DNA of 64,000 bases from Strigamia acuminata (lineage: Eukaryota), in NCBI GenBank assembly GCA_949358305.1, contig OX442314.1, forward strand, positions 12,896,001-12,960,000. Reading direction: 5' to 3'. Below, in pieces: positions 29,885 to 63,547 of the stretch (its first letter is position 1; every line of letters starts with the position of its first letter). A program made the translations under genes and the position numbers. The notes under the pieces are model-generated. The model made no database searches. It was given only the letters and a program-made list of their open reading frames with translations, and had not been told where the DNA came from.

Positions 29885-32420
<2,536 letters not shown>

Positions 32421-33708: not shown

Positions 33709-34742
33709 GTAAAAGTAAGCTGGAATCTGCATGACGTAGTGTAGCTCGTAAAAATGAAAATAAACATAAAACAAAAAATAAGTATTTACATTTTCTTATA
33801 ATTTTGTTTGTTGCAAACTACGAGACTATTAAATTTTATTCTTTAAAAAAATGTAATTTAACTTAAAAGTAAAGACTGGAACAAGAACCCGGAACAACTA
33901 CTTTTTCTGTGATACTTGTAAAGGTGTATGACGCGATATAAATGTCTTTTCGCGTTCACAACTGAACTAGAATCCGATTTTTCTGGTACAGTTTTATGTC
34001 TACTTTCCAACTAATGTTAATTGCAGGTTAAATGTAGTTCCAAGGGAGAAAAAACTAAATTACAGCGAAAGTTACGCTAATCGGAACGCCACCTGGCGAA
34101 TCCCGTATAATGGAGGCCAAAATGTTCGGCCCAATACGTTTTTTCATGTTTTCGATATTAAAAAGAGGTCGAAAAATTCTGAATCCAGGCTCATTCGATT
34201 GGAAATTGCATTCTGCACGAGCCTCTATGTTTTTGTTTTTGGTTTGATCAAGAAAAAGATTTGTTTCGGGCGATCGAAGCCGGCGACCGCATGGCAAATT
34301 CAGTGGGAAATTTAAAAATGTGCATTGCATTGCAGTGAAGCCAGCAGGGATACAGCTTAAAAGCCTTTTTTTTTAAAAAATCATAGTTTGTTTTATTTAC
34401 TAGTTTTTGGTGAACTCAACTGGAGTGTCCACTGACCAGTCGATACTCCAACATTGATCCGTCATCTAGAAAACCTTGTTTAAAATAATAATTAGATTTG
34501 TGACATCACAATTCGCGTTTTCATAATTTGATGAATCATATTTTATCGAATAAGAGTCGCCCTCGAATTGTAGCCGCGGCTGAGACACCAAGAATACCGT
34601 ATTTTTCCAAAAGTACGGTGAAATTATCTATGGAACTTCTTTTTATAGCAACTAGTAAACTCATCCATACATGTGGTCATCTGGTCAAGTGTTTGATTGG
34701 TCCAAGGACCCCCTTTTCATCTTTGCACACGGTGCATGGATT

Positions 34743-37444
34743 TATGGGGGGCCGAAGGTCTCAATATTAGTACCTATGCTATGACATGCCATCTGGGAAT
34801 GACATGCCAACTCTTCATGCCATCTCGGCATGACATGCCAACTCTTCATGCCATCTCGGCATGACATGCCAACTCTTCATGCCATCTCGGCATGACATGC
34901 CAACTCTTCATGCCAACTCTTCATGCCAACTCTTCATGCCAACTCTTCATGCCAACTCTTCATGCCAACTCTTCATGCCAACTCTTCATGCCAACTCTTC
35001 ATGCCAACTCTTCATGCCAACTCTTTATGCCAACTCTTTATGCCAACTCTTTATGCTAACTCTTTATGCTAACTCTATATGCTAACTCTTTATGCTAACT
35101 TTTTATGCCAACTCTTTATGCCAACTCTTCATGCCAACTCTTCATGCCAACTTTTAATAGACCCTGACATTTTCCTAAAAGACTCTATTTATCTTAATTT
35201 GCATTTTTTGTTCAGTTTTCACTGTCTACACTTAAAAGTCAAATCCATTTATTCTCATACTCTTGTGAAAGTGTTAGAAATAAAATATTTGGATTGACCC
35301 CAAATTAAATCCAGTTTTAATTAAACCTTGAAATTTTAAGCAGTTAAATACTTCTCAGATACTCGTTTCTTCAACCCCACTTCTTTGATTTTTTTTTGTC
35401 TGAGAAATGACCCATTTGAGAAGTGATTGTCTGAGAAATAACCCCTTAAATTTAAAATTTTTCCGGATTTTCGAAGAAATGAAGGATATCCGTTCAATTA
35501 ACGTTTCTAGTGGAGTTTTTTCCGCTCATTCGTTTGGTGTTTAGTTTTTAACAATCCAAGCTTTTGTTCTCGAGATACTTGCAATTTTAATCAATTATTG
35601 TCCGAATTCGCCAAGTTTAATTGCACTAGTCACTCTTGAATTTTGTGGTACTTTTTGAACCTCTTCAATAGTACTTTTATGGATTTCTTCAGATGCACCA
35701 GTATGAGATTTTGCTTGATCTTGTGAGATTTTGTAAGATTGTGCTTGATTTTGTGAGATTTTGTAAGATTGTGCTTGATTTTGTGAGATTTTGTAAGATT
35801 GTGCTTGATTTTGTGAGATTTTGTAAGATTGTGCTTGATTTTGTGAGATTTTGCTACATTTTTTAAGATTTTGCTGAAGTACAGTCGTATGGTACTAAAA
35901 AGTGTTACAGGTACTGTACCAGTCCCACAAATTGCGGTATTTTTTGAAAAGTACTGTGTACCTGTACCGGTACCGGTACTGCTGAAGAAATCCACAAAAT
36001 TCCCACAAAATCTAAAATTCAAGCTGACTACCGTCTTTACCCGAAAATTACACCATGGCCACAGATTAGAAGAAGACACAGATGCGACAATCCTTTGTTA
36101 TAATGCGTTACCGGCCACCAAGCGGAAAAGTTTTTCCCTATCGATTCAAAATACAAATTCATTGTTGTCAGACCCCAAAATTATTATTTTTTTTATTTTT
36201 TTATTTTTTATTTTTTTTATTTGTATTTTGAATCGATAAGGAAAAACTTTCCCGCTTGGTGGCCGGTAATGCATTATAACAAAGGATTGTCACATCTGTG
36301 TCTTCTTCTAATCTGTGACCATAGCGTTGTACAGTATTCGAGTTTTGTTGAAAACTGGGATTTTTGATACGTTGTTGAAAAATTCGAATATAACACCACT
36401 TCAGCTATAACACCATGGTGTTATATTCGAATATACACCCATGGTGTTATATTCGGATTTGGATACAAATATTTAAGCCGTACAGTATACCCTTGTTTTT
36501 GTTAATTTATATTTTTTTTTGTTTTTTTAATCAGCCTAATGAATACAAATTAACAGAGTAAATAACAATTTTACTTTTTCGACAAACTCACATAATATTG
36601 GCTGATTATAACACCATGGTGTTGTATTCGGGTGAAGATGGTAGTGCCATCAAACTTCGAAAATTCGGACAAAAATTGATGAAAAATGCAAATATCTCGA
36701 GAACGAAAGCTCGAATCGTTCAAAACTAAACACCAAACAAAAGAGCAGAAAAAACTTCATTAGAAACGTATTTTTATTATTTCAAGCCAGATTGGCATAA
36801 GATTTTGTTTATGGTACACTTTCTTCAGATGTACAAGTATATCTATTTAACTGCTTAAAATTTCAAGGTTTAATTAAAATTGGATTTAATTTGGGATCAA
36901 TCCAAATATTTTATTTCTATCACTTTCACAAGAGTATGAGGATAAATGGATTTGACTTGTAAGTGTACAAGTAGACAGTGAAAATTGAACAAAAAATGCA
37001 AATTAAGATAAATAGAGGCTTTTAGGAAAATGTCAGGGTCTATTAAAAGTAGGCATGAAGAGTTGGCATGAAGAGTTGGCATAAAGAGTTGGCATAAAAA
37101 GTTAGCATAAAGAGTTAGCATATAGAGTTAGCATAAAGAGTTAGCATAAAGAGTTGGCATAAAGAGTTGGCATAAAGAGTTGGCATGAAGAGTTGGCATG
37201 AAGAGTTGGCATGAAGAGTTGGCATGAAGAGTTGGCATGAAGAGTTGGCATGAAGAGTTGGCATGAAGAGTTGGCATGAAGAGTTGGCATGTCATGCCGA
37301 GATGGCATGAAGAGTTGGCATGTCATGCCGAGATGGCATGAAGAGTTGGCATGTCATGCCGAGATGGCATGAAGAGTTGGCATGTCATTCCCAGATGGCA
37401 TGTCATAGCATAGGTACTAATATTGAGACCTTCGGCCCCCCATA
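34743..37444. mobile_element. Foldback element with ~600 bp+ TIRs containing 13-bp tandem repeats
   Basis: Ends TATGGGGGGCCGAAGGTCTC...GAGACCTTCGGCCCCCCATA, flanked by duplicated TGGAT. (ATGCCAACTCTTC)n is mirrored on both arms. A 30-bp array lies at 35705-35850 and a nested palindrome at 36055-36322. Absent at the paralogous site 48661-48675. Confidence 0.9.
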
Positions 37445-37550
37445 TGGATACACGTTTTGTCTAGCTACGTAAACGTTCAAGTGTCGTTCACATGCCGTGC
37501 ATTTGACTTGTGTAAAGAAATTGTTCGAGACTTTTATCATTCGTGTCGAC

Positions 37551-39897
37551 ATGCCACGCAGAAAATCAACCCAGAGTCTACAAGAATTGTGTTTAAACGT
37601 GGCGACAACTCGATTTGAAGAGCTAGAGATGCAAGGTCAACTGGTAGATAAGCCTTCCATGCTTATTAATAGCATATTTCAAAGACTGTGCTTGCAAAAT
37701 AGGCCTACAACTACAAATCGTTTGTTGTCTTCAATCATTTTTATTCATTCCGGCACCCTATCACTGCGCCATTTGGATCAGTTTGATCTGCCCATGATTC
37801 TTCTAATCGATAAAATAGGGCAAGTTTGTACGAACCTTGTGAATATAACATTGGAGAGAGATTTTGATCGAAAAATAACATCCAACAACTGCATCAAGCT
37901 GGTGCAAAGTTCACCTAAACTTGAACGTTTAGTCCTTTCTTCGTTGAAACAATGCACGGATGAAGTTGTTGCTGCGATCGGACGGAATTGTCCACTCATG
38001 ATACATCTCGACATTGAGGGTTGCTTCAACGTTACTGACATCGGATTTCGCTTATTAAGTGCTTGTACGAAACTGGAATATTTGGATGTTCGATCGACTA
38101 GTGCCACAGTCGAGGCGTGTTTGTTCCTTCTCAACCAGCTGCCACTTTTAAAACGATTTGAACATAACCATTGGCGCAAAATATTCACCGAGTTGGCAAA
38201 ACTACCGAATGGAAACGAAACAGTGCGCACTTATTCCATTGAAATAATTTCACGGATGAATAACGAACATATTCCCATCCTGAGGACCAAGTTTCCGAAT
38301 TTAAGAAGGTTACGTTTGTCAGATGGCGGAATAACTCTTCTGAATTTTAATACTATTTTAATATGGCCCCAACGATTGACGAGTCTCCAACTGTTTGAAA
38401 TTAGACCGGTCAATATTCGACTTATTGATCGTGCTTGGCCAATGTTAGAGGTATTACAATTAGAAGGATGTACAGTTGTGTTCAAAAAAACTGGACCCTC
38501 ACTCTGTGCTGGCAATTGAAATTGTGAGTAATTCCGTGTTTTGCCACTAGGTGAAACACCAGACATCAACAGGTGATAATATAGCCTTGTCCTCAGTGAT
38601 CCTTTCATAATTTAGTGGACAGTTTAAAAAGGAAAATATAAGTTATTTTCATAGAAAAAGTGTATGGATATTTAATATTAAGAAATAAAAAATTAATTTG
38701 TTTAATATTTTCTAACAATAAAGAATATTTTCTAACAGTAAAGAATATTTTCCAACAATAAAGAATATTTTCTAACAATAAAGAATATTTTCTAACAATA
38801 AAGAATATTTTCTAACAATAAAGAATATTTTCTAAAAATGAAGAATATTTTCTAACAATTTTTACCACTTTAAGTGAAAAACCTCTCTGATGCACCCAAA
38901 ACACGCTCATTTTGGGACCACTTTAAGTGAAAAACCTCCCTAATGCGACCAAAACACCTCATTTTGGGACCACTTTAAGTGAAAAACCTGTCTGATGCAC
39001 CCAAAACATGCTCATTTTGGGACCACTTTAAGTGAAAAACCTCCCTAATGCGACCAAAACACCTCATTTTGGGACCACTTTAAGTGAAAAACCTCCCTAA
39101 TGCGACCAAAACACCTCATTTTGGGACCACTTTAAGTGAAAAACCTCCCTAATGCGACCAAAACACCTCATTTTGGGACCACTTTAAGTAAAAATTGTTA
39201 GAAAATATTCTTTATTTTTAGAAAATATTCTTTATTGTTAGAAAATATTCTTTATTGTTAGAAAATATTAAACAAATTAATTTTTTATTTCTTAATATTA
39301 AATATCCATACACTTTTCTATGAAAATAACTTATATTTTCCTTTTTAAAACTGTCCACTAAATTATGAAAGGATCATAGAGGACAAGGCTATATTATCAC
39401 CTGTTGATGTCTGGTGTTTCACCTAGTGGCAAAACACAGAATTACTCACAATTTCAATTGCCAGCACAGGGTGAGGGTCCAGTTTTTTTGAACACAACTG
39501 TACAATTTTAAATGAAAGTGATGATGTTAATTATTCTCCACTGAAAAACCTACGTCAACTGTATTTATTCTATAAAAACTTAATTACCGAACAACAATTA
39601 AAAACGTTATTGGTACAATGTAAAAGATTAGAACAGTTGACACTTGATGGGAGTGAAATAATTTCAGACAATTTAATTTTGGAACTTGTTGACTTAAATG
39701 CATTACTATGTCTGAAAATTTTACTATTTTATATTTGCCCTTTTATTAGTTTCATTTCGATTATAAAATTGTTGGGAGTGCCAAGTCCAATGAATGAGTT
39801 ACACATCGGAGGTTGTAATATTGGCGCTTCAGGTTATGAGAAAATTATTAGTTATGTCAAAAGTAGGAATTTGGATTTGAAAATACTATATCAATAG
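37551..39897 (+). pseudogene. BC-box/LRR protein paralog A, interrupted by a TIR insertion
   Basis: Joining 37551-38472 to 39503-39897 gives 1317 nt, an uninterrupted 438-aa ORF colinear with 48795-50129. With the insert it terminates at 38519. Confidence 0.88.
38473..39500. mobile_element. Tc1/mariner-type non-autonomous element (1028 bp)
   Basis: TA|CAGTTGTGTTCAAAAAAACTGGACCCTCAC...GTGAGGGTCCAGTTTTTTTGAACACAACTG|TA. TA TSD confirmed by the empty site ATGTACAAT at ~49721. Long TIRs, a 20-bp array (AAGAATATTTTCTAACAATA) and a ~50-bp array (CCACTTTAAGTGAAAAACC...). Confidence 0.92.
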
Positions 39898-40238
39898 GGG
39901 TGATCAACCAAAATATACCTTAAAAAAGAAACAGTGTAAAATAAAGAAATAAAAATTATGCCTAATTAAAAGTAAACATTTGTGTTTTTATGAAAATGTG
40001 ATTTATTAATCAGAAAACAAAATGCTGGTTATTTTGAGGAAATAAGATAAATTACATCTGATTTAAATGCCAAATGCAAAAATGAAGTGACAAAATTACA
40101 CAATCTAGTGTGTCGGAATGTAGTGTGTGGATTAACCACACACATTCCTTATCTTAGATTCCTTGCATGGATTTTTCAAGAATTCGTAGTCTTCTTTGGG
40201 ATAACCGTGTAAAAATTCCAAATTTCGTTTTATTACAG

Positions 40239-40601
40239 GTTGAGAAATTGTTTGAAAAATTCTCTAGTGAAATTGAAGCAATCCTTTTATTTTTATCGCA
40301 TCTTGAAACCATAGAAGTTTGGAATAGAAATTCTCAAGTAAATGTAGCAGCTGACTATCGAGTTAGTTTATCTCCCAACTCTATTGAAACGGTGCAAAAT
40401 AAAAGAGCTGAATTGAACCAGGTAAGGACCCAATACAACGCACTTCTATTTAATTTTTGATTTTTTTTATTTTTCAATTTTTTTTTACAGAAAATTGACA
40501 AAAACGATGAGTTTAGAAAACGTCGTATTGAAATACGGAGTGACCAGGTCGTGAATATTTACCCCATATTTACCCCATTGTGGAGTAGTATCACACCTTA
40601 G
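40239..40601 (+). pseudogene. Orphan sacsin-like exon (40239-40421) plus short terminal exon (40491-40601), copy 1
   Basis: TACAG|GTT...CAG|GTAAGG exon encoding VEKLFEKFSSEIEAILLFLSHLETIEVW, resembling the sacsin repeat-region LLFL motif (recognised from memory, not searched). No upstream sacsin exons are visible. Confidence 0.6.
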
Positions 40602-40939
40602 TGTTTGAAAATAGGTGTAAATGGCAAATAAAAGCAGTTGTTTTTGAATAAAATGGTCTTTTATTTTTTTCAAATGTAATGAACAATTATTTAGTGATTG
40701 ATGAAAAAAAATGTGTTTTGCAATGCGAGGAACAAAAAAATTAATCTAAATTAATTCAAAAACGTTCGAAAAAATTAAAAAAAATCCAAATAATCCAAAA
40801 ATTCCAAAAGCTTTTTTAAAAATCCGAAAAAATTTTAAAAAAAAATAAAAAAAAATTTAAATTTAAAATCTTGAATTAATTCGTAAAAAATATATATATA
40901 AATAGAAAAATACAACAAAATAAATAAAAATTATCGACT

Positions 40940-41576
40940 TAACACGTAAAACTCGATTCTCGACCTCTCAGCGGTATCTTGACTTCCTTCTCGACGCTTT
41001 TCCTCGTCCCACTCGCGCCCGCGCATTCCAAAACGCCCCAAAAACGCTCGGACTTGAGTTTTTCTTATGAAACCAACTTCCCCTCGAATTGTATCGACCA
41101 CAACTCCGATTTTCGAACACCATTATTCGTCTCTGCTCGCCCTTCCGATCGAAATTCGTTTTTTCCGCTCGAAATCGACCTTGTGGCTCTAAAAAAAAAC
41201 AATTTTTAACCCAAACGAACCATTAAAAAACCAAAATCACACTCCACCTTGACTCAATTGCAGACCCACGAGCGAACTGACCACCACGGCGATCGCTGCG
41301 AGGGACAAATTCCTTCGCGTTGACGGTCATTTCAACGTTTTTCTCCCGGAAATTGCTTTTGTTGTTGTTTTTGTTGTCCGGTTTCCATCGTCTATCGTAG
41401 CCCGACGCTCCACGGTAGCCTCTACGCGTGGGCAACTCGTTGCGACGACCAGAAAAGTCTTGTCGACGTCCCTGGTTGAAGTTGCGCTGATTGCCACGTT
41501 ACTGCGGGGAACATGAAGTCGAGGCCCGCGGTTTATTTTCGGTCGCGTAGGACACGAGCAAGTCTCTTTCCATCAA
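40940..41576 (-). pseudogene. PAM2-motif/RG-rich ORF, degenerate copy 1
   Basis: Paralogous to 51456-51809 but CAA>TAA at ~41499-41501 truncates it; retains MTVNAKEFVPR. Confidence 0.45.
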
Positions 41577-42728
41577 TCTATCAATTGGAGATGGTGGGGA
41601 AATGTGTTTGATTATGGTTTTTATCGTTTAACTGTGTTGCAATATTATCGTAATACCGGAAACACGAAATTTGCACCTCCGTTGTCACCACATAATGTGC
41701 AATGTTAGGTAAGATTAAAGATGGAATTTCTTTCTGTCACGTTGCGGTGCTGGTTTACACTTTTTTACCCCATGTCAGTTCACACCTCCCACTTACACCT
41801 ATATACACCTTTTAGAAGAATTACACCTTTTAACAAGAAGGTGTAACTGTGCCATTTTACACCATTTTTACTCTATTTTCGTTCACTCCTCCCCCCTGTT
41901 ACACTTTTTTAGCTGTTAACAAAATTTAAAAGGTGTATTTGATGCTTTTGCACCTTTTTACACCTATTATTTCTCCCAGTGTAGCCGCGGCTAAGACACC
42001 AAGAATATCGTATTTTTGAAAAAGTACGATATAGTTTCCGTATTTAACCTCACGAACGACGAACGTACGCTTCGTTCGTGACGTTCAGACTTCGTTTGTT
42101 ACATTAAACAAATGTAACAAACGAAAAACCGAAATTGTAATTGCTGACAAAAATGGCAGTTTTGAATAATCGATAAAATACGGTAGCTACGGTATGTGCA
42201 GTAACTGTTTGGTGAACTCATCATTAAAAGTAATTTACACCTGTGACTAAAGTATTGTTGTTTATTTCTTTTATTTTAGCATTATTAGGCCTAATAATAG
42301 GCTGAATACTGCTAAATAACAACTGGAACTAGAAAATCAGTGTCTTGTAACATTCTGACACGATTTCTTGCATCTTCCAAAAAAAAAATTTTGAATCAAA
42401 TGCATACACACCGTTGTGACTGTAATGGAATGTAATGGAATGTAATGGAACTGTAATTTTGCAAAAAGAAATAAGGAAATGTTAAAAACATAATTTCAGT
42501 GCAGATTTTCTGTAGGGATACAGCATGGATACTACTATCCTCCATTTTGAACATAAATACCGCTACACGAACGAAAAAAAAAAAAATTTTTTTTAAACTG
42601 TTTGATTTTTTTTACAAACACCACACAACAATTAGTTTTCATTAATTTCAGCACAATTTGCTTTTTTTATTGACATTTTTATTAATATTTCTTTTATTCA
42701 TTTTAAAAATAAATCCTATTTCTTAGCA

Positions 42729-42801
42729 TGACCTCTGCCAGAATTGAACCTGGGATCCTTTGTTCCAAAGACCATCGCTCTATCCTCTAGGCCTGTACAG
42801 C
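42729..42801 (-). pseudogene. tRNA-derived sequence (tRNA-Arg-like SINE head or pseudo-tRNA), left arm
   Basis: Reverse complement GGCCTAGAGGATAGAGCG...CAGGTTCAATTCTGGCAGAGGTC has A- and B-box-like motifs at tRNA spacing; stems are degenerate. Confidence 0.6.
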
Positions 42802-43587
42802 TAATACTATGTACGTGCGTAACTTCTGTTATATAGCTTTGTCAACAACTGTTCATTGTGCACAGAAAATACCACGTTTCTCATCAAACTGTTTTTTCCA
42901 CCAAATAAAAAAAAACATTAACTTTACTTTCCATTTTATAATTGAGTGAAGTCAAATGTTATATGCAATACAATTACAACTAATCTTTATTCCAATGCAT
43001 ATTCACACCAAAAAATGCTTTTTCAGACACAAAAATGCTTTTTCAGATACAAAAATGCTTTTTGCAGACTAAAAAAAATGCAGCAGATGCAAGTTGTTCC
43101 TAAAAGCGGCCCCACAAAACTACACTGCAAGACACTGCGCAGCAAAACCAACCAAAAAAAGTTTCTGCAGCCCCAAAAAAAACACTTTTTTAGATAATTA
43201 TCACTACTGTTTCATGATAAAATATCAGATTTTATAAATAAAAGTGTGCAAAATCCATTGAATCAGTTCTTTTTTAGCAATTGTACTAATCTTGGCGCTT
43301 CAGCTTGTGACAAAAGAAAAAAGTTTGAGAGTTATGCGCAGGTAATTATTACGCAATGACTGCGTAAGTGCGTAAGTGCGGGATTGACAATACAGAGTAA
43401 AAGGCGCGAAAAGTGGCCAGTGTCACTCTTTTCCAAAGATGGCTAATGATACACGTATAAACACATTATTCAATAATGGTAGTGAGGTTTGCGTCGCCGC
43501 ATTCCAATTGCCAAATAATCGCTGGGGTGTTGGCGCATCTTGGGGCTATTTGCACAAAGAGTAAAAAATAATTTTTTTTAGTTTTCT

Positions 43588-43983
43588 TTTTAGACTTCTA
43601 AACCTGATGTTTAGAAAGTCTAATAAAACGACTCTGTCTGCCTACTGTCTGTCTGTCCGCATCCATATCTCAAAAACTATAGCAACTAGAACCAAACGGA
43701 CAACTGCAATGAACTCAGCATACCTGTATTAGGTTCCTAAGGTATTTTCGTATTTTTCCGACCTCCGGTTTAATAAAAAAAACCGGTTTTATTCGACTTT
43801 TAGCGTTCTATTACACCTGCTACCGGAAATGACGTATTTGGCCAAAATTTTTATTTTTTATTACTTTATTTTCTTTTATTTTGGTGTTTAATTTAGGGAC
43901 AGACAGACAGATATATTTCTATACCGAAAAGTGTAGAAGCGGTTTAGAAGTCTAATATGCATTACAGACATTTACTTGTTTTA
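43588..43983 (+). mobile_element. Helentron-associated non-autonomous element (HINE/DINE-1-like)
   Basis: Starts in a T-run with TTAGACTTCTAAACC and an adjacent inverted copy GTTTAGAAAGTCTAA, then a (CTGT)n microsatellite, ATATCTCAAAAACTAT, a 3' subterminal inverted copy GGTTTAGAAGTCTAA at 43941-43955, ending CTTGTTTT. No TSD. Confidence 0.7.
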
Positions 43984-45568
43984 ATATAAATTTATTTACA
44001 GCAACTTTAGCAGCTTATTACCAGGAACCATTAGTACCAAAAATCGGGCCGATATACACGCTGCGCTATTGGCTGTAGAGCGGGCTCAAGAGAGAAATAT
44101 GAATCCATTACGAGTGTATTCTGAAAGCACGCATTTGGTTCGAGGTAACACCACCAACCTAAAAAAAATCCCTTACTCACCCAACCCGGGTCATTTTTGA
44201 CCCCAAGCCGAAAAACTTTTTCCAAAAAATGAGTGGAAATCATTTTATTCTCTGAGTATTTCAGGTTTATGAAGAAATTTAAGCAATTCGGTATTTTTCA
44301 AATGAGAGCGACAAAAATAATTGACATTGTATTCAAAACTAATAAGTAAACAAAGGAATTTTGTGAAAATTTTTTTTTGCGATTTTTAAATCTATTTATT
44401 GCTTGTTGTGATGTTTAAAGAAAATACATGAAATTTCAGAAAAAAAATCCCTTTAGTTTTCAAGAAAAAAAATAAAAACACTTTTGGAGGTCAAAATTGA
44501 CCCTAGGTTGGGGTGGGGAGGATTAATTTGACTTCTGTATTCATATATATATATATTGTTAGGAATGATGCTTCACCAATTAGGTGAAATAACCAACCAA
44601 TGGACGACTCGTACAGGTGTTGAATTAGACGACGCAGTCGACTTTCTACGCTTAGTGCAAGCAACGAATGGAATAAGAATCGTATTTGTAAATAACATTT
44701 TATTTAAAAGTTTTTTACTTAAAATTAACAATTTTAATTTTTTTCTTTAAATAATTATTTCTTTTTCGTAGAATCAATGTCCTGTAAATATTTGTATTCC
44801 AAATATGGAGAATGCCAAAACACTGGCGAAAGCGGCATTTTAAAACGGTGTGTATGCATTTGATTCACAATTCTTTTTTTTGAAAGATGCAAGACATCGT
44901 GTCAGAATGTTACAAGACACTGATAACATTTGGTTCCATTTCTACAGTGCTGCAAATTTCCTCCACGACCCGATTAAAACCCAAGTGATATTTTGGAAAA
45001 TACAATCATTTTCAGATGGTCAATCGTCCTTCTTCTGTTCCCCAGTAACCCCTGTTGAAAGTCCAACAGGTGGTTGTTTTTCTTTTTCAATATTTTGTTC
45101 TTTAGTTTGGTATGCAATAATTGTTAGAAGGTTGTGATCTAACCTAGATTTATAGTTCCCGTGGTTTGCTTTTGTTTTGTTTTTGAATAAAAATCATTAG
45201 TTTAAGTTAATTGATTACTGGTTCCTTAATTTTCCTTTTGTAGTTGTAGTTTTTATTATTGACTTAATGGCAGACGAGTGTCTCAGACACTCTGACACTC
45301 TGAAAAAGCATTTTTGTGTCTGAAAAAGCATTTTTGTGTCTGAAAAAGCATTTTTTGGTGTGAATATGCATTGGAATAAAGATTAGTTGGTTGTAATTGT
45401 ATTGCATATAACATTTGACTTTACTCAATTATAAAATGGAAAGTAAAATTAATGTTTTTTTTTATTTGGTGGAAAAAACAGTTTGATGAGAAACGTGGTA
45501 TTTTCTGTGCACAATGAACAGTTGTTGACAAAGCTATATAACAGAAGTTACGCACGTACATAGTATTA

Positions 45569-45641
45569 GCTGTACAGGCCTAGCGGATAGAGCGATGGTC
45601 TTTGGAACAAAGGATCCCAGGTTCAATTCTGTCAGAGGTCG
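45569..45641 (+). pseudogene. tRNA-derived sequence (tRNA-Arg-like), right arm
   Basis: GGCCTAGCGGATAGAGCG-ATGGTCTTTGGAACAAAGGATCC-CAGGTTCAATTCTGTCAGAGGTCG follows the pattern of eukaryotic tRNA-Arg(TCG), but the acceptor and anticodon stems do not pair fully. Confidence 0.62.
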
Positions 45642-46313
45642 TTGTAAGAAATAAGATTTATTTTTAAAATGAATAAAAAAAATATTAATAAAAATGTCAA
45701 TAAAAAAAGCAAATTGTGCTGAAATCAATAAAAACTAATTGTTGTTTGGTGTTTGTAAAAAAAATCAAACAGTTTAAAAAAAAAATTTTTTTTTGTTCGT
45801 GTAGCGGTATTTATGTTCAAAATGGAGGGTAGTAGATTTTTTTATATTGGAAATACATGAAATTTCAAAATTACACATTTGAAAATGTTTGTAAAGTTAT
45901 TGTAAAACAAGTAAACAAGTAAAACAAAAAACACTGCCATGTTTATGTAAAAAGGCTTTTATGCTGTATCCCTACAGAAAATCTGCACTGAAATCATGTT
46001 TTTAGCATTTTCTTATTTTTTTGTTTCAAATTTACAGTTACATTACATTACATTACATTACATTACAGTCACAACGGTGTGTATGCATTTGATTCACAAT
46101 TCTTTTTTTATATATATAAGTTTAAATAAAATTTTAAATATATAAGTTTCATTTTGACGAAATTTAACTTTATTACTAATTATAATTGATAAAATTTCTC
46201 TCACGAATCATAAAATGTCCACCATCGTTATTCAAGTTTTGAGCGCAGTGCATTATGGACGTACTAGCGACAGCACAATGCTCAAGGCCAGTAAGCTGGA
46301 ACCTGCTTGATGT

Positions 46314-47660
46314 GGGTGGCCCCCAAAATGTCTAATGACAAAATGTCTAATCCCAGAATGTCTAAGCCGAAATGTCTAATCCAAAATGTCTAATGGACAA
46401 AATGTCTAATCCGAAATGTCTAAGCCGGAATGTCTAATGCCAAAATGTCTAATCCAAAATGTCTAATGACTAATAATGTCTAATAATTTTATTTCATCTC
46501 AATTTTTTTTTAAAGGTTTTTATTTAACTTGACTTGAACGTTTGTTTCTGTCAACGTCCGGTCACGTGACCTGTAATGTAATGTTTCAACTTCCGGTACT
46601 TCCGGTTTGTGTAATGTCCACAAAAAATGAATTAAAAAATTAATCATAAGATTAGAAAGTAGACTTTTCTAGTGCAGTTTTTGGTCTACTTTCCAATTTT
46701 CATGATAAAATTTGTATTAAAAGTAGTTAAAAGGGAGAAAAAGCTAAATTACGGCGAAATGTAACAAAAACAGCGCCACCTGGCGAAGCCCGTGTCCTTT
46801 AATGGATGCCAAAATGTTCGCCGATACGAATTTTGATGTATTCGATACTAAAAAAGGTTCTAAAAATTCTGAAACCAGGCTAAACCTGGTTAAAACAAAA
46901 ATTCCTATCTGCCCATATTTTTTTTTAAAAATATTATTTAGAAAAAGTACTTTGTTGAAAGTTTTTTGGCACGATCACGGCAATCACGAAACAATCTGCG
47001 GTAGTATCGCACTTTGGCGGCAATTTGAAAAACCAATATAAAAGCCTTTTTCCAAAACGTAGTTTTTTATATTTACTTGTTCCATTTTTATTCCGCAGAA
47101 GAAAAACAAAAAAAATACAATTTTTTATAATTAATTCGTTTATTATTTTAAGATTACAAAAGAAAACACGAAATACAATTATAATTTCACATTGTGAGCA
47201 ATATACCACGCAGATAATCTAAAGTATTGCGGTTTGCCCTGTCGTTAAATATTGTAAGAACTACGATAACAATAACACGTGTGTTGTATAGAATCAATGG
47301 TGTTGTGAACTTGTTATTTATTATATTACTTTAGATTATCTGCGTGGTATTGCTCACAATGTGAAATTATAATTGTATTTCATGTTTTCTTAAAATAATA
47401 AACGAATTAATTATAAAAAAAATTGTATTTTATTGTTTCTATTGATAATTGTTTTTCTTCTGCGGAATAAAAGTGGAAAACAAAAATTTTTATGTCAAAT
47501 TTGGAGATTCATAAATAATAAAATTATTAGACATTTTGGCATTAGACATTATTTGATTTTGTCATTAGACATTTTGGATTAGACATTTTGGCCATTAGAC
47601 ATTTCGGCTTAGACAATTTGGTATTAGACATTTTGTCATTAGACATTTTGGGCTGGATCC
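46314..47660. mobile_element. Non-autonomous Mutator-like/foldback element
   Basis: 9-bp TSD GCTTGATGT (46305-46313, 47661-47669), G/C ends, mirrored subterminal (AAAATGTCTAAT)n / (ATTAGACATTTT)n arrays, internal palindrome at ~47085-47470. Absent in copy 1 at ~33728. Confidence 0.87.
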
Positions 47661-48794
47661 GCTTGATGTAGTGTAGCTCGTAAAAATGAAAATAAACATA
47701 AAACAAAAATAAGTATTTACATTTTCTTATAATTTTGTTTGTTGCAAACTACGAGACCATTAAATTTTAACTTTAAAAAAATGTAATTTAACTTGAAAGT
47801 AAAGACTGGAACAAGAACCCGGAACAACTACTTTTTCTGTGATACTTGTAAAGGTGTATGACGCTATATAAATGTCTTTTCGCGTTCACAACTGAACTGG
47901 AATCCGACTTTTCTGGTGCAGTTTTATGTCTACTTTCCAATTAATGTTAATTGCAGGTTAAATGTAGTTCCAAAAGAGAGAAAAAGTTAAATTACGGCGA
48001 AAGTTACGCTATTCGGAACGCCACCTGGCGAATCCCGTATAATGGAGGTCAAAATGTTCGGCCCAATACGTTTTTTCATGTTTTCGATATTAAAAAGAGG
48101 TCGAAAAATTCTGAAACCAGTCTCATTCGATTGGAAATTGCATTCTGCACGAGCGTTTATGTTTTTGTTTTTGGTTTGATCAAGAAAAAGATCCGTTTCG
48201 GGCGATCGAAGCCGGCGACCGCATGGCAAATTCAGTGGGAAATTTGAAAATGTGCATTGCAGTGAAGCCAGTAGGGATACAGCATAAAAGCCTTTTTAAA
48301 AAAAATCATAGTTTGTTTTATTTACTAGTTCTTGGTGAACTGATCAACGGGAGTGTCCACTGACCAGTCGACTCTCCAACATTGATCCATCATCTAGAAA
48401 ACCTTGTTTAAAATAATAATTAGATTTGTGACATCACAATTCGCATTTTCATAATTTGATGTGTCATATTTTATCGAATAAAAGTCGCCCTCGAATTGTA
48501 GTCGCGGCTGAGACACCAAGAATACCGTATTTTTGCAAAAGTACAGTGAAATTATCTATGGAACTTCTTTTTATAGCAACTAGTAAACTCATCCATACAT
48601 GTGGTCATCTGGTCAAGTGTTTGATTGGTCCAAGGACCCCCTTTTCATCTTTGCACACGGTGCACGGATACACGTTTTGTCCAGCTACGTAAACGTTCAA
48701 GTAAACGTTCAAGTAGCCTTGCAAGTGTCGTTCACATGCCGTACGGTTCATCTGTGTAAAGAAATTGTTCGAGACACTTATCATTCGTGTCGAC

Positions 48795-50129
48795 ATGCCA
48801 CGCAGAAAATCAACCCAGAGTCTACAAGAATTGTGTTTAAACGTGGCGACAACTCGATTTGAAGAGCTAGAGATGCAAGGTCAACTGGTAGATAAGCCTT
48901 CCATGCTTATTAATAGCATATTTCAAAGACTGTGCATGCAAAATAGGCCTACAACTACAAATCGTTTGTTGTCTTCAACCATTTTTATTCATTCCGGCGC
49001 CCTATCACTGCGCCATTTGGATCAGTTTGATCTGCCCATGACTCCTCTAATCGATAAAATAGCGCAAGTTTGTACGAACCTTGTGAATATAACATTGGGG
49101 GAATTCATGTATTTCGATCGAAAAATAACATCCAACAACTGCATCAAGCTGGTGCAAAGTTCACCTAAACTCGAACGTTTAGGCCTTTCTTGGTTGAAAT
49201 TACAATGCACGGATGAAGTTGTTGCTGCGATCGGACAGAATTGTCCACTCATGAAACATCTCAACATTGAGGGTTGCTCCAACATTACTGACATTGGATT
49301 TCGCTCATTAAGTGCTTGTACGAAACTGGAACATTTGAGTGTTCAATTCACTCGTGCCACATTCGAGGCGTGTTTGTTCCTTCTCAACCAGCTGCCACTT
49401 TTAAAAGTATTTGTACATGACCATTGGCGCGAAATATTCACCGAGTTGGCAAAACTACCGAATGGAAACGAAACAGTGCGCACTTATTCCATTGAAATAA
49501 TTTCATGGATGAATAACGAACATATTCCCATCCTGAGGACCATGTTTCCAAATTTAAGAAACTTATATTTGAATGATGACAGCATAACTCTTCTGAATTC
49601 TAATGCTATTTCAATATGGCCCCAACGATTGACGAGACTCGAGCTGTTTTCAGTTAGACTGGTCAATATTCGACTTATTGATCGTGCTTGGCCAATGTTA
49701 CAGGTATTAATATTACATAGATGTACAATTTTGAATGAATGTGATGATGTTAATAATTTTCCACTGAAAAACCTTCGTCAACTGGATTTATTCTATCAAA
49801 ACTTAATTACCGAACAACAATTAAAAACGTTATTGGTACAATGTAAACGCTTAGAAATGTTGATGCTTTATAACAGTGAAATATTTTTAGACAATTTAAT
49901 TTTGGAACTTGTTGACTTGAATGCGTTACAGTGTCTGAAAATTTTACAATTCTATGTTTGTCCTTTTATTAGTTCCACGTCGATCATAAAATTGTTGGAA
50001 GTGCCAAGTCCAATGAATGTGTTACACATCGTACGTTGTAATAATATTGGCGCTTCAGGTTATGAGAAAATTATTAGTTATGTCAAAAGTAGGAATTTCG
50101 ATTTAGATATATATTATGAACAGGGGTGA
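48795..50129 (+). CDS. Intronless 444-aa leucine-rich-repeat protein (RI/FBXL/AMN1-like repeats) with N-terminal BC-box-like motif, paralog B
   Basis: Open ATG-TGA frame with about 13 LxxLxL repeats (e.g. CPLMKHLNIEGCSNITDIGF, CTKLEHLSV) and N-terminal SLQELCLNVA followed by KPSMLINSI. AATAAA lies ~40 nt after the stop. Confidence 0.9.
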   Translation: MPRRKSTQSLQELCLNVATTRFEELEMQGQLVDKPSMLINSIFQRLCMQNRPTTTNRLLSSTIFIHSGALSLRHLDQFDLPMTPLIDKIAQVCTNLVNITLGEFMYFDRKITSNNCIKLVQSSPKLERLGLSWLKLQCTDEVVAAIGQNCPLMKHLNIEGCSNITDIGFRSLSACTKLEHLSVQFTRATFEACLFLLNQLPLLKVFVHDHWREIFTELAKLPNGNETVRTYSIEIISWMNNEHIPILRTMFPNLRNLYLNDDSITLLNSNAISIWPQRLTRLELFSVRLVNIRLIDRAWPMLQVLILHRCTILNECDDVNNFPLKNLRQLDLFYQNLITEQQLKTLLVQCKRLEMLMLYNSEIFLDNLILELVDLNALQCLKILQFYVCPFISSTSIIKLLEVPSPMNVLHIVRCNNIGASGYEKIISYVKSRNFDLDIYYEQG

Positions 50130-50464
50130 TCAACCAAAATATACATTAAAAAAGAAACAGTGTAAAATAAAGAAATTAAAATTATGCATAATTAAAAGTA
50201 AACATTTGTGTTTTTATGAAAATGTGATTTATTAATCAGAAAACAAAATGCTGGTTATTTTGTGGTAATAAGATAAATTGGATCTGATTTAAATGCCAAA
50301 TGCAAAAATGAAGTGACAAAATAACACAATTTAGTGTGTTGGAATGTAGTGTGTGGATTAACCACACACATTTCTTATCTTAGATTCCTTGCATGGATTT
50401 TTCCAGAATTCGTAGTCTTCTTTGGGATATCCGTGTAAAAATTCCAAATTTCTTTCTATTATAG

Positions 50465-50827
50465 GTTGAGAAATTGTTTGAAAAATTCTCTAGTGAAATT
50501 GAAGCAATCCTTTTATTTTTATCGCATCTTGAAACCATAGAAATTTGGAATAGAAATTCTCAAGTAAATGTAGCAGCTGACTATCGAGTTAGTTTATCTC
50601 CCAACTCTATTGAAACCGTGCAAAATAAAAGAGCTGAATTGAACCAGGTAAGGACCCAATACAACGCACTTCTATTTAATTTTTAATTTTTTTTATTTTT
50701 CAATTTTTTTTTACAGAAAATTGACAAAATCGATGAGTTTAGAAAACGTCGTATTGAAATACGGAGTGATCAGGTCATGAATATCTACCCCATATTTACC
50801 CCATTGTGGGGTAACATCACACCTTAG
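50465..50827 (+). pseudogene. Orphan sacsin-like exon (50465-50647) plus short terminal exon (50717-50827), copy 2
   Basis: Same as 40239-40601; the 61-codon exon differs by one residue (V/I). Confidence 0.6.
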
Positions 50828-51455
50828 TGTTTGAAAATAGGTGTATATGGCAAATAAAAGCAGTTGTTTTTGAATAAAATGGTCTTTTATTTTTTTCAAA
50901 TGTAATGAACAATTATTTAGTGATTGATGAAAAAAAATGTGTTTTGCAATGCGAGGAACAAAAAAATTAATCTAATTTAATTCAAAAACGTTCGAAAAAA
51001 TTAAAAAAAATTCCAAAAAAATCAAAAAATTCCAAAAGCTTTTTTAAAAATCCGAAAAAATTTTAAAAAAAAATTTAAAAAAACTTAAATTTAAAATCTT
51101 GAATTAATTCGTAAAAAATATATATATAAATATAAAAATACAACAAATAAATAAAAATTATCGACTTAACACGTAAAACTCGATACTCGACCTCTCAGCG
51201 ATATCTTGATCTCCTCCTCGACGCTTTTCCTCGTCTCACTCGCGCCCGCGCATTCCAAAACGCCCCAAAAACGCTCGGACTTGACTTCTTCTTATGAAAC
51301 CAACTTCCCCTCGAATTGTATCGAATCGACCACAACTCCGATTTTCTAACACCATCATTCGTCTCTGCTCGCCCCTCCGATCGAAATTCGTTTTTTCCGC
51401 TCGAAATCGACCTTGTGGCTCTAAAAAAAAAACAATTTTTAACCCAAACGAACCA

Positions 51456-51809
51456 TTAAAAAACCAAAATCCCTCTCCACCTTGACTCAATTGCAGACCC
51501 ACGAGCGAACTGACCGCCACGGCGATCGCTGCGAGGGACAAATTCCTTCGCGTTGACGGTCATTTCAACGTTTTTCTCCCGGAAATTGCTTTTGTTGTTG
51601 TTTTTGTTGTCCGGTTTCCATCGTCTATCGTAGCCCGACGCTCCACGGTAGCCTCTACGCGGGGGCAACTCGTTGCAACGACCAGCAAAGTCCTGTCGAC
51701 GTCCCTGGTTGAAGTTGCGCTGATTGCTACGTTGCCGCGGGAAACATGAAGTCGAGGCCCGCGGTTTATTTTCGGTCGCGTAAGACACGAGCAAGTCTCT
51801 TTCCATCAA
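51456..51809 (-). CDS. RG-rich ORF with PAM2-like motif (MTVNAKEFVPR); likely first exon of a small or degenerate gene
   Basis: 117-aa ORF with a possible intron 51480-51421 (AAG|GTGGAG...TTTTAG). Motif matches the xNAxEFxP PAM2 consensus. Confidence 0.45.
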   Translation of the reverse strand: MMERDLLVSYATENKPRASTSCFPRQRSNQRNFNQGRRQDFAGRCNELPPRRGYRGASGYDRRWKPDNKNNNKSNFREKNVEMTVNAKEFVPRSDRRGGQFARGSAIESRWRGILVF

Positions 51810-52589
51810 TCTATCAATTGGAGATGGTGGGGAAATGTGTTTGATTATGGTTTTTATCGTTTAACTGTGTTGCAATATTACCGTAATACCGGAAACACGA
51901 AATTTGCACCTCCGTTGTCACCACATACTGTAATGTGCAATGTTGGGTAAGATTAAAGATGGCGGAGTTTGGAATTTTTTTCTGTCACGTTGCGATGCTG
52001 GTTTACACTTTTTTACCCCATGTCAGTTCACACCTCCCAGTTACACCTATATGCACCTTTTAGAAGAATTACACCTTTTAACAAGAAGGTGTAACTCTGC
52101 CATTTTACACCATTTTTACTCCATTTTCGTTCACTCCTCCCAGTTACACTCTTTAACACCTTTTTAGGTGTTAACAAAATTTAAAAGGTGTATTTGATGG
52201 TTTTACACCTTTTTACACCTATTATTTCTTCCAGTGTAGCCGCGGCTAAGACACCAAGAATACCGTATTTTTGAAAAAGTACCGTATGGTTTCCGTATTT
52301 AACCTCACGAACGACGAACGTACGCTTCGTTCGTGACGTTCAGACTTCGTTTGTTACATCTAGGAGGCAACAAGAAAGTCTCATGTTGAGGTACCAACGG
52401 TATTTACCGACAAAAAAGGACCAAGAGCCGATTGGACGTATTATGTTGCAGGAAATTTACTATTTGCTGCATAAAAACAACTTGGATTTAACTTTTGCTA
52501 TCAAAATTGATAATTATATGAGACGAACTTTGATGTGGTTACCAATGTCTGAGGGTATACTTGACAAACTTGTTGAGAAAGAAGAACGG

Positions 52590-52790
52590 CCACCTGTTAG
52601 ACTTTCAACAGGGGTTACTGGGGGACAGAAGAAGGACGATAGACCAACTGAAAATGATCATATTCGCAGCTTATTAGAAATAGTTCATTTTCCAAAATAT
52701 CACTTGGGTTTTATTCCGGTCGTGGAGGCACTGTAGAAATGGAACCAAATGTTCAGTTATCAGTGTCTTGTAACATTCTGACACGATGTC
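52590..52790. repeat. Inverted dispersed copy of 44890-45075
   Basis: CCACCTGTTAGACTTTCAACAGGGGTTACTGGGG...CAGTGTCTTGTAACATTCTGACACGATGTC is the reverse complement of the 44.9-45.1 kb segment; its end also occurs at 42338-42364. Confidence 0.8.
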
Positions 52791-53233
52791 TGTCGCGCTC
52801 AACTCTAACCGTCGCTAACTCGTGGGTTGATTACTTAATTCGACTAACTCACTACCGCTTTGCTCAAGCGGTTTACCCAAAGAAATGATTACACAGATAT
52901 AGAAGGTAAAATATAATATAGATTTATTCTGTGGGACAATGTACAGATATATCTTATATATATATATATATAAAAGGTAGGTAAAAGGTAAATCGGAATG
53001 GGTGAAGGGAAATGGAAAGGTAAAGGTATGATGAAAGCTGGCTGGAATCGGCGAGGTCGTCTGTTGTCTCGGTCGTGTCCAAGATGGCGTCCTCGTTGTG
53101 GCAACGTGGTGTCGTCTTGGGCCGGCGTGGCAATATGGCGTCCTCGGCTCGTCTCTGGCTGGTCCTTCGGGCTCACGCTGGTCGGGCGCGAGTGAATGCT
53201 TAGTTAAAAGGCTTACTTCGGGCTGTTGTCTAG
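52791..53233 (-). mobile_element. Probable truncated solo LTR (R/U5 part)
   Basis: Begins TGT exactly where the dispersed repeat is broken. On the minus strand it reads GC-rich leader, pyrimidine/TA tract, AATAAA (52922-52927), ending ...GCGACA. The other end and TSD are not seen. Confidence 0.5.
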
Positions 53234-53570: not shown

Positions 53571-53594
53571 ACGACCCAGATCAAAAAATGATCT

Positions 53595-54270
53595 CGTATT
53601 CGACTCGTTTTCGAGTCGAATGCAAATTTTGCCCTTCTTTGACGCGAAATCGTATTCGACTCGTTTTCGAGTCGAATGCGAAATCGTATTCGACTCGTTT
53701 TCGAGTCGAATGCGAGTTTTGCCCTTCTTCAACGCGAAATCGTATTCGACTCGTTTTCGAGTCGAATGCGAATTTTGCCCTTTCTCAACGCGAAATCGTA
53801 TTCGACTCGTTTTCGAGTCGAATGCGAGTTTTGCCCTTCTTCAACGCGAAATCGTATTCGACTCGTTTTCGAGTCGAATGCGAATTTTGCCCTTCTTCGA
53901 CGCGAAATCGTATTCGACTCGTTTTCGAGTCGAATGCGAAATCGTATTCGACTCGTTTTCGAGTCGAATGCGAGTTTTGCCCTTCTTCAACGCGAAATCG
54001 TATTCGACTCGTTTTCGAGTCGAATGCGAATTTTGCCCTTTCTCAACGCGAAATCGTATTCGACTCGTTTTCGAGTCGAATGCGAGTTTTGCCCTTCTTC
54101 AACGCGAAATCGTATTCGACTCGTTTTCGAGTCGAATGCGAATTTTGCCCTTCTTCAACGCGAAATCGTATTCGACTCGTTTTCGAGTCGAATGCGAATT
54201 CGTATTCGACTCGTTTTCGAGTCGAATGCGAATTTTGCCCTTCTTCAACGCGAAATCGTATTCGATTCGC
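53595..54270 (+). repeat. 56-bp tandem array (with 31-bp variants), left arm of giant foldback
   Basis: AACGCGAAATCGTATTCGACTCGTTTTCGAGTCGAATGCGA(G/A)TTTTGCCCTTCTTC repeated; each unit has the hairpin ATTCGACTCG-TTTT-CGAGTCGAAT. Confidence 0.95.
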
Positions 54271-54319
54271 TTTCGAATCGTATACGAGATGGTCGATTTT
54301 TGTTTCCCGGACTTTGATT

Positions 54320-58780: not shown

Positions 58781-58789
58781 GAAAGCGAA

Positions 58790-63430: not shown

Positions 63431-63547
63431 ACGTGACGTGGCACGTTGCTGTTACGTGACGCGATAGCCAGTATTTAAGCAGGGGATTCCATCATCGTTT
63501 ACACAAATGCGCATTGCAACGTGGAGGCGCATTCGAGTCCTTTTCCC

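What the first reader, a model, noticed from the sequence alone, without database searches (positions are those of the whole stretch)
37551..50129. Paralogous intronless BC-box LRR genes with a hypervariable concave face: candidate diversifying cullin-ligase (immune?) receptor system
Seen: the first 47 codons of the two paralogs are identical, and the helical parts and the neighbouring sacsin-like exon are almost unchanged. Yet a hand alignment gives about 70 amino-acid substitutions and 3 in-frame indels against roughly a dozen synonymous changes. The changes cluster on the x positions of LxxLxLxx in nearly every repeat (A/B): ITLERD/ITLGEFMY, RLVLSS/RLGLSW, IHLDI/KHLNI, EYLDVRS/EHLSVQF, KRFEHN/KVFVHD, RRLRLSDGG/RNLYLNDDS, SLQLFEI/RLELFSV, EVLQLEG/QVLILHR, QLYLFYK/QLDLFYQ, QLTLDG/MLMLYN, ELHIGG/VLHIVR. 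Established: these positions form the ligand-binding concave surface, the pattern diversified in plant NLRs and lamprey VLRs. SLQELCLNVA fits the Elongin-BC box (S/T/P)LxxxCxxx-hydrophobic, and KPSMLINSI resembles a Cul2 box, as in PRAME- or ZYG11-type CRL2 receptors. Inference: a lineage-specific family of cytosolic substrate receptors with a fixed ligase adaptor and an arms-race target surface, possibly for degrading pathogen or selfish-element proteins, analogous to nematode F-box expansions.
Basis: partly seen in the sequence, partly recalled or inferred. Interest (0 to 1): 0.88.

Follow-up and report, generated by a model that had tools for sequence, protein, structure and literature searches.

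The report
Fast-evolving centipede-type ubiquitin-ligase receptor family
Two neighbouring gene copies, one intact and one broken by a jumping-DNA insertion, belong to a multi-copy family whose predicted target-gripping surface changes several times faster than neutral DNA while the end predicted to plug into the protein-destruction machinery stays identical, which likely marks a repertoire for destroying fast-changing foreign or selfish proteins.

Summary
B (48795-50129) is an intact 444-aa ORF. A is not intact: a 1,028-bp TA-flanked, high-copy foldback element interrupts it, and a second 2.7-kb element sits about 105 bp upstream. With the insertion removed, A and B differ by 70 substitutions, 3 in-frame indels and 13 synonymous-only codons. 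Exposed strand positions differ at 33 of 60 codons, against 37 of 378 elsewhere and 0 of 36 structural positions (ML omega about 10, p 3e-15). Helices and loops diverge at roughly the neutral rate, so they are not 'almost unchanged'. The fold is an FBXL-like LRR solenoid (pLDDT 88.7). Residues 9-18 fit the BC box; the Cul2 box is imperfect. A predicted complex with a stand-in Elongin C scored 0.67 against a best control of 0.17, through residues 6-41, all identical in A and B. Public contigs show many more variants, and the closest relatives are eight divergent Strigamia proteins with the same variable face. Best reading: an undescribed birth-and-death family of Elongin-C/cullin substrate receptors under diversifying selection, working like PRAME and nematode F-box expansions. 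Targets, expression and any immune role are untested.

The parts
48795..50129 (+). Copy B: intact single-ORF BC-box + LRR gene, 444 aa
48819..48848 (+). BC box of B (residues 9-18, SLQELCLNVA); identical in A at 37575-37604
   Evidence: against the consensus in PMC4878042; L10 and C14 at the centre of the predicted Elongin C interface
48894..48920 (+). Cul2-box-like segment of B (residues 34-42, KPSMLINSI); first position is K, not hydrophobic; identical in A at 37650-37676
49080..50120 (+). LRR solenoid of B, 12 clear repeats plus 2 irregular strands; exposed strand positions carry the excess of amino-acid change
37551..38472 (+). Copy A, 5' part of coding sequence (BC box and first 8 clear repeats)
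38473..39500 (.). Non-coding foldback (MITE-like) element inserted in A's coding sequence: about 307-bp terminal inverted repeats, TA duplication (38471-72, 39501-02), internal 20- and 52-bp tandem repeats; very high copy in public contigs; truncates A at 38517-38519
39503..39897 (+). Copy A, 3' part of coding sequence (last 4 clear repeats and cap), in frame with the 5' part if the element is absent
34743..37444 (.). Second inverted-repeat element (about 2.7 kb, arms 587 of 595 identical, short target duplication) inserted about 105 bp upstream of A's ATG; absent from B
33719..42104 (+). Duplicated unit A (with its two insertions)
   Evidence: flank divergence to unit B 41 of 1013 upstream, 78 of 2200 downstream
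47652..52359 (+). Duplicated unit B
40239..40421 (+). Sacsin-like exon-sized fragment carried in unit A (copy in unit B at 50465-50647); 2 of 183 bases differ
   Evidence: (SACS E 0.0029, below cut-off)

Best explanation
These are two copies (B intact, A broken by a transposon insertion) of a multi-copy LRR gene family whose strand face is under strong diversifying selection and whose invariant N-terminus is predicted to bind Elongin C, so that members likely act as cullin-RING ubiquitin-ligase substrate receptors aimed at fast-changing foreign or selfish proteins. Shown: the gene anatomy, the excess of amino-acid change on exposed strand positions, the unchanged N-terminus and structural leucines, and many further variants in the species' contigs. 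Predicted: the LRR fold and BC-box docking on Elongin C. Inferred: that the strands form the concave ligand face (established LRR geometry; exposure was not computed), that the cullin is Cul2, that bound proteins are ubiquitinated and degraded, and that the targets are pathogen or selfish-element proteins. Copies are born by segmental duplication, diverge at the binding face and die by insertion, as A likely has.
For: Selection: exposed strand positions pN 31.6% (45.9 of 145.5 sites) against 3.5-4.0% in the flanks; ML omega 10.4, LRT against omega=1 p 3e-15; counting each changed codon once still gives 4.2 times the synonymous rate (p 2e-12); with strands taken from the model's DSSP, 39 of 98 strand or just-after-strand codons differ against 15 of 129 helical (p 1e-6). 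Same face across the family: identity at positions 3,5,7,8 is 19 of 245 (7.8%) between B and 8 Strigamia proteins against 575 of 1530 (37.6%) elsewhere, and 14.6% against 34.8% among the Strigamia proteins. Adaptor: BC-box match at 9-18 (5% of shuffles have one in the first 40 residues, 0.65% with a loose Cul2 box at the right spacing). Predicted complex with a stand-in Elongin C: score 0.67, best of 3 controls 0.17, runs agree in at least 93% of contacts, partner pLDDT 51-55; the mark was reached by 51 of 78 solved microbial complexes and 2 of 108 mismatches, and by 39 of 65 novel eukaryotic solved pairs and 2 of 126 unrelated pairs. All 21 interface residues (6-41) are identical in A and B. 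Fold: pLDDT 88.7, pTM 0.86; best matches FBXL2 (Z 26.6, rmsd 4.4, 356 aligned) and, at rank 8, the Elongin-C-bound LRR protein Rad7 (Z 21.5, rmsd 5.3, 333 aligned). Family size: 342, 312 and 356 contigs of runs X1-X3 lie on the 1.7-kb B stretch, 190-205 of them under 90% alike; 26, 22 and 22 contigs carry one shared variant; loose ends cluster at strand borders. Eight Strigamia proteins from separate 50% clusters are the closest relatives.
Against: No expression evidence either way. The Cul2 box has K at its first, normally hydrophobic, position, so Cul2 use is not shown. The Elongin C pass may come from likeness to solved BC-box complexes, used a stand-in partner from unnamed metagenome contigs and no alignments, and no Skp1 control could be run. 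Outside the strands and the N-terminus there is no measurable purifying selection between A and B (omega 1.1-1.4), as expected if A has decayed. The omega estimate rests on one pair, and I chose the repeat register after seeing the alignment (controls address this). Pfam finds no BC/SOCS/VHL-box family in the N-terminus. Nothing links the family to infection.
Confidence: 0.6

Rival explanations
1. Same Elongin-C/cullin receptor, but the targets are the animal's own proteins (for example germline or developmental proteins), and the face diverges through repeated adoption of new host substrates or reproductive conflict, as proposed for part of the PRAME family.
For: PRAME genes are testis-restricted, expanded and selected on the concave face (PMC3037382, abstract and passages). 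Nothing here identifies a target.
Against: 33 of 60 exposed positions changed while neutral DNA moved 3.5-4%, in all 12 repeats; such a rate is easier to explain with a moving, antagonistic target. This is inference.
Confidence: 0.17
2. The N-terminus is a divergent F-box (Skp1/Cul1) or the proteins are ligase-independent binders or decoys that sequester a target without degrading it.
For: UniRef labels six of the eight Strigamia relatives 'F-box domain-containing protein'; the LRR type is FBXL-like; the Cul2 box is imperfect.
Against: No Pfam F-box match in B or in 11 relatives; BC-box leucine and cysteine are kept in register in centipede and vertebrate relatives (85 of 89 vertebrate rows each); Elongin C docking predicted.
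Confidence: 0.12
3. The A/B pattern comes from short gene-conversion tracts copied from more distant paralogs into the strands, or homogenisation of the helices, plus drift of a dead copy A, rather than from selection acting on this pair.
For: Many paralogs exist as donors; 14 of 20 codons with two or more changes lie at exposed strand positions; 141 identical bases at the 5' end have probability 0.006 at the flank rate; A is broken.
Against: Synonymous change inside strand cores (3 of about 42 sites) is not above the rest (10 of about 200; p 0.70); donors 20% diverged are disfavoured (p 0.02), though 15% is not excluded (p 0.11). Interleaved structural positions show 0 of 36 changes. Drift cannot give nine times the flank rate. 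The same face is hypervariable among Strigamia proteins, so conversion would only shuffle selected diversity.
Confidence: 0.09

Closest known systems
PRAME/PRAMEF family (mammalian CRL2 receptors)
   Same: N-terminal VHL box binding Elongin C and Cul2 (PMC4878042 passages), LRR body, lineage-specific expansion, positively selected sites clustered on the concave face in artiodactyls (8 of 12; PMC3037382 passages), conserved N-terminal ligase-binding element (PMC13015453 passages), PAMP/interferon induction reported (PMC3584020 abstract).
   Different: No PRAME-named sequence among named hits; repeats here are FBXL-like; arthropod host; single coding exon; imperfect Cul2 box.
Nematode F-box expansions (Thomas 2006, seen only as cited in PMC8665587; KSS antidotes, PMC12680543)
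   Same: Conserved adaptor end, positively selected substrate end, birth-and-death turnover, proposed to recognise foreign proteins (PMC8665587 passages); rapidly evolving F-box antidotes degrade selfish toxins (PMC12680543 abstract).
   Different: Those use Skp1/Cul1 through an F-box; here no F-box match and a BC box with predicted Elongin C binding; substrate domain is an LRR solenoid.
ZYG11/ZER1, LRR1 and yeast Rad7 (Elongin-C-binding LRR receptors)
   Same: BC box ahead of LRRs; Rad7-Elc1 is a structural neighbour (Z 21.5, rmsd 5.3, 333 aligned).
   Different: Conserved low-copy genes with fixed roles (recalled); ZYG11/ZER1 carry a C-terminal ARM domain (recalled), whereas this model is LRR to the C-terminus.
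Uncharacterised si:ch211-214j8.12 family (fish, amphibians, reptiles, birds) and unnamed arthropod and nematode clusters
   Same: Top whole-length structural look-alike of a Strigamia relative (TM 0.76); same MP-x7-L10-x3-C14 start and colinear repeats.
   Different: About 25% identity; one or two rows per species listed and no mammal among the 98 rows; orthology not shown (B's best domain score to that profile, 37 bits, is below generic FBXL hits); no paper found.

Membership tests
VHL-box (CRL2) substrate receptors | BC box (S/T/P)LxxxC/S/Axxx-hydrophobic | tested here: met
   Residues 9-18, the only match in B (consensus from PMC4878042); last position is Ala
VHL-box (CRL2) substrate receptors | Cul2 box (hydrophobic-P-xx-hydrophobic-xxx-hydrophobic) 8-23 residues after the BC box | tested here: inconclusive
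   Spacing and 3 of 4 defined positions fit; first is K in A and B. Full match in 4 of the 7 Strigamia relatives that have the N-terminus (consensus PMC3355856)
VHL-box (CRL2) substrate receptors | Predicted docking of the BC box on Elongin C | tested here: met
   Score 0.67, best control 0.17, L10/C14 central; prediction with a stand-in partner, may reflect likeness to solved complexes
VHL-box (CRL2) substrate receptors | Measured assembly with Elongin B/C-Cul2-Rbx1 and substrate ubiquitination | not testable with these tools
   Needs pull-down and ubiquitination assay
SOCS-box (CRL5) receptors | Cul5 box with LPxP (motif recalled) or Pfam SOCS_box match | tested here: not met
   No SOCS_box hit in B, its first 60 residues or 11 relatives; B has no LPxP after the BC box (sequence)
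F-box/LRR (FBXL) proteins | F-box domain | tested here: not met
   No Pfam F-box or F-box-like hit at E up to 0.1 in B or up to 5 in 11 relatives
F-box/LRR (FBXL) proteins | Cysteine-containing LRR solenoid | tested here: met
   FBXL2 best by sequence (E 5e-15) and structure
F-box/LRR (FBXL) proteins | Skp1 binding | not tested
PRAME family | Sequence homology to PRAME/LRRC14 | tested here: inconclusive
PRAME family | Expansion with positive selection on the concave face | tested here: met
   a shared way of working, not proof of membership
ZYG11/ZER1 | C-terminal ARM domain after the LRRs (recalled) | tested here: not met
   Model is LRR to residue 442 of 444
NLR receptors | NACHT or NB-ARC domain | tested here: not met
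   None in the 444-aa ORF

The most novel reading that the evidence does not exclude
Centipedes, and probably other arthropods, keep a cytosolic immune repertoire of tens of Elongin-C/Cul2 LRR receptors with antibody-like variable faces that recognise pathogen or selfish-element proteins and send them straight to the proteasome. It would be the expanded branch of an old, unstudied animal lineage whose low-copy vertebrate relative (si:ch211-214j8.12) also has a less conserved strand face (40% against 50% identity elsewhere).
Probability: 0.35. Interest if true: 0.82.

Novelty: new variant of a known kind. Interest (0 to 1): 0.64.

Why it matters
Arthropod immunity surveys list Toll, PGRP, Dscam and similar expansions in centipedes; the passages I saw of one such survey (PMC4833078) contain no ubiquitin term. 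The idea that expanded cullin adaptors destroy foreign proteins rests mainly on nematode and plant F-box genes and, loosely, on PRAME. A CRL2-type version in arthropods would be an independent case with very simple anatomy: one coding exon, an invariant 47-residue plug and about 60 variable positions. That makes the hypothesis testable, because a substrate trap can be made by disabling the BC box. It also suggests that proteins now auto-labelled 'F-box' in Strigamia, and an unstudied vertebrate gene, are Elongin C partners.

Tried and rejected
No whole genome was held, so paralogs could not be counted or put through PAML; tblastn of B on the window found only A and B. No RNA holder listed: no evidence on expression. 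Single-sequence folding failed (pLDDT 39.9). Word-indexed searches with B and with alignment A2 gave mostly generic LRRs. The Atlas could not take B itself; a Strigamia relative was used, and its N-terminal 55 residues gave no named family (best structural row AMN1 homolog, TM 0.73 over 49 residues, under the naming bar). No PRAME, ZYG11 or LRR1 entry was among the listed fold matches, which excludes nothing. Splicing out A's insertion: 7 in-frame GT-AG pairs exist, none with a pyrimidine-rich acceptor (5-8 of 17 bases), so judged unlikely but not excluded. Whether the insertion is fixed: a 76-base contig with 0 differences crosses the left junction in X1 and X2 but has only 25 bases on the element side, under the tool's bar, and these runs may be the source; none was listed for X3 in a cut table. 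Summed contig depth (about 55-80 times a single-variant contig at conserved helices) is not a copy number and is used only as a hint of tens of copies. Run X6 gave 8 short, mostly distant pieces: not used. A radical/conservative classification was uninformative. The tree is the quick version, 28 rows: A, B and 8 Strigamia rows group at SH-aLRT 83 only. Rfam: 0 matches in 33000-53000. Earlier scan findings: none. Thomas 2006 was not held. Literature searches that found no description of this family: 0 papers; 0 papers; subscription journals and supplements were not covered, so a description there is possible.
Full report
Anatomy. The window holds a segmental duplication: 33719-42104 (unit A) and 47652-52359 (unit B). 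Non-coding flanks differ at 78 of 2200 bases downstream (3.5%) and 41 of 1013 upstream (4.0%), which sets the neutral scale. B is one ORF of 444 aa at 48795-50129. A carries a 1,028-bp insertion at 38473-39500 with terminal inverted repeats (299 of 306 identical), a TA duplication and internal tandem repeats. Its ends are extremely abundant in the species' public contigs: summed depth over the repeat is more than 1,000 times that of an A-specific contig. Read-through ends at 38517-38519 after 322 aa, losing the last four clear repeats and the cap. A second inverted-repeat element of about 2.7 kb (arms 587 of 595 identical) sits about 105 bp upstream of A's ATG. Both sets of arms are more alike than the two units, which suggests the insertions followed the duplication (inference).

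The A/B comparison. With the insertion removed in a script, A gives 438 aa without a stop. There are 70 substitutions, 13 synonymous-only codons, 3 internal in-frame indels and 47 identical leading codons; whole-gene NG86 omega is 1.31. I defined 12 LxxLxLxx cores on B. Exposed positions 2, 3, 5, 7, 8 differ at 33 of 60 codons, structural positions 1, 4, 6 at 0 of 36, and all other codons at 37 of 342. A pairwise GY94 fit gives omega 10.4 for the exposed class (LRT against 1, p 3e-15) and 1.1-1.4 for the rest, not different from 1 (p 0.27); structural positions are below the rest (p 0.003). Because I chose the register after seeing the alignment, I ran controls: 0 of 394 shifted masks reach 33; strands from the model's DSSP give 24 of 60, the three residues after each strand 15 of 38, helices after residue 47 15 of 129, other loops 16 of 181; counting one event per codon still gives 4.2 times the synonymous rate. 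Synonymous change is not raised inside the cores (3 of about 42 against 10 of about 200 sites). So the strand face is under diversifying selection, while helices and loops move at about the neutral rate rather than being conserved.

Fold. Single-sequence folding failed. With a 50-row alignment the model reached pLDDT 88.7 and pTM 0.86: three N-terminal helices, then an LRR solenoid to the C-terminus, with strands at my register. Best matches are FBXL2 (Z 26.6, rmsd 4.4, 356 aligned) and FBXL17; Rad7 bound to Elongin C is at rank 8 (Z 21.5, rmsd 5.3, 333 aligned). These rows cover residues 25-444 and say little about the N-terminus. That strands line the concave, ligand-binding face is established LRR geometry; I had no coordinates to compute exposure.

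Adaptor. The BC-box and Cul2-box consensus were read from PMC4878042 and PMC3355856 (passages). B matches the BC box once, at 9-18. The candidate Cul2 box at 34-42 has the right spacing but K at the first position; 4 of the 7 Strigamia relatives with an N-terminus match it fully. No F-box or SOCS-box profile matches B or 11 relatives, although UniRef labels six Strigamia proteins 'F-box domain-containing'. I obtained animal-type Elongin C ORFs from metagenome contigs with a short recalled motif (Skp1_POZ match) and folded one with B 1-125. Score 0.67, best of 3 controls 0.17, at least 93% contact agreement, partner pLDDT 51-55; calibration 51 of 78 solved and 2 of 108 mismatched microbial pairs, 39 of 65 and 2 of 126 for eukaryotes. 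L10 and C14 are central and all 21 interface residues are identical in A and B. BC-box complexes are solved, so the pass may reflect likeness; it supports binding and does not show it. The cullin was not modelled.

Family. On the 1.7-kb B stretch, 342, 312 and 356 contigs from runs X1, X2 and X3 (two studies; one may be the source) align at 80% or more, 190-205 of them under 90%; 26, 22 and 22 contigs share one variant, and loose ends pile up at strand borders with consensus agreement of about 0.6-0.8. That means at least about ten loci and probably tens. Of 1.84 billion representatives, the closest full-length or N-terminal relatives are eight Strigamia maritima proteins from separate 50% clusters (34-42% identity over matched stretches), so the host is likely a centipede (inference). 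They show the same variable face: 7.8% identity to B at positions 3, 5, 7, 8 against 37.6% elsewhere. A quick tree groups them with A and B at SH-aLRT 83 (28 rows). Look-alike clusters exist in other arthropods, nematodes and chordates. The chordate one, si:ch211-214j8.12, spans fish to birds with no mammal among 98 rows, keeps L10 and C14 in 85 of 89 rows, and has a strand face less conserved than the rest (40% against 50%); its orthology to this family is not shown. The architecture is thus old and widespread; the expansion looks lineage-specific.

Mechanism. Most likely each intact copy plugs into Elongin B/C and a cullin (Cul2 by motif) through a fixed N-terminus and grips a target on the variable face, marking it for degradation. 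Plug invariance and face selection are shown for this pair; docking is predicted; ubiquitination and the nature of the targets are inferred. No RNA holder was listed, so expression is open.

Comparison. It works like PRAME (VHL box, LRR, expansion, concave selection; PMC3037382 passages; PMC13015453 passages; PMC3584020 abstract) and like nematode F-box expansions (PMC8665587 passages; PMC12680543 abstract). It is not shown to be a PRAME, and fails the F-box, SOCS-box, ZYG11 and NLR tests. Seven library searches found no description of the family (listings only); subscription journals and supplements were not seen. PMC4833078 (passages) surveys Strigamia immune genes and has no ubiquitin term.

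Verdict. A real and strong signal, a new variant of a known kind. Interest 0.64; confidence 0.6 in the conflict-driven cullin-receptor reading, about 0.77 that it is an Elongin-C-type receptor family whatever its targets.

Noticed in passing
P0157 and (not in the window): The uncharacterised vertebrate family si:ch211-214j8.12 has a conserved BC-box-like start and a strand face less conserved than the rest of the protein; no mammal among 98 rows and no paper found. A candidate unstudied Elongin C receptor.
   Followed up: partly
window 40239-40421, 40491-40547 and 50465-50647, 50717-50773: Sacsin-like exon-sized fragments with GT-AG borders ride in both duplicated units just downstream of the LRR gene; only 2 of 183 bases differ in the larger one. 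The rest of a sacsin gene was not found nearby.
   Followed up: partly
window 53594-59540 and 63500-64000: Large palindrome-rich repeat block with a near-perfect 551-bp tandem array (about 54321-58736) flanked by inverted 56-bp-unit arrays; looks like a foldback element or satellite.
   Followed up: no
window 42532-43068 and 45299-45835; 42336-42526 and 44844-46109: Further inverted-repeat pairs between the two units; the region is dense in foldback elements.
   Followed up: no
window 12994-14727 (-): Large exon of a sodium/calcium exchanger gene (Na_Ca_ex, Calx-beta).
   Followed up: no
window 19123-28622 (-) and 30444-30971 (-): Cysteine-rich exons with weak EGF, TILa, IGFBP and fn3 matches, and a JmjC exon (E 5e-10).
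   Followed up: no
window 37446-37550 and 48666-48794: A pyrimidine-rich AG lies about 85-115 bp upstream of both ATGs and may be the acceptor of a 5' UTR intron; B has a 12-bp tandem duplication there.
   Followed up: no
P0086: An unnamed 1,080-aa protein carries an internal BC-box and Cul2-box-like segment directly ahead of FBXL-type LRRs, showing the same pairing in another lineage.
   Followed up: no
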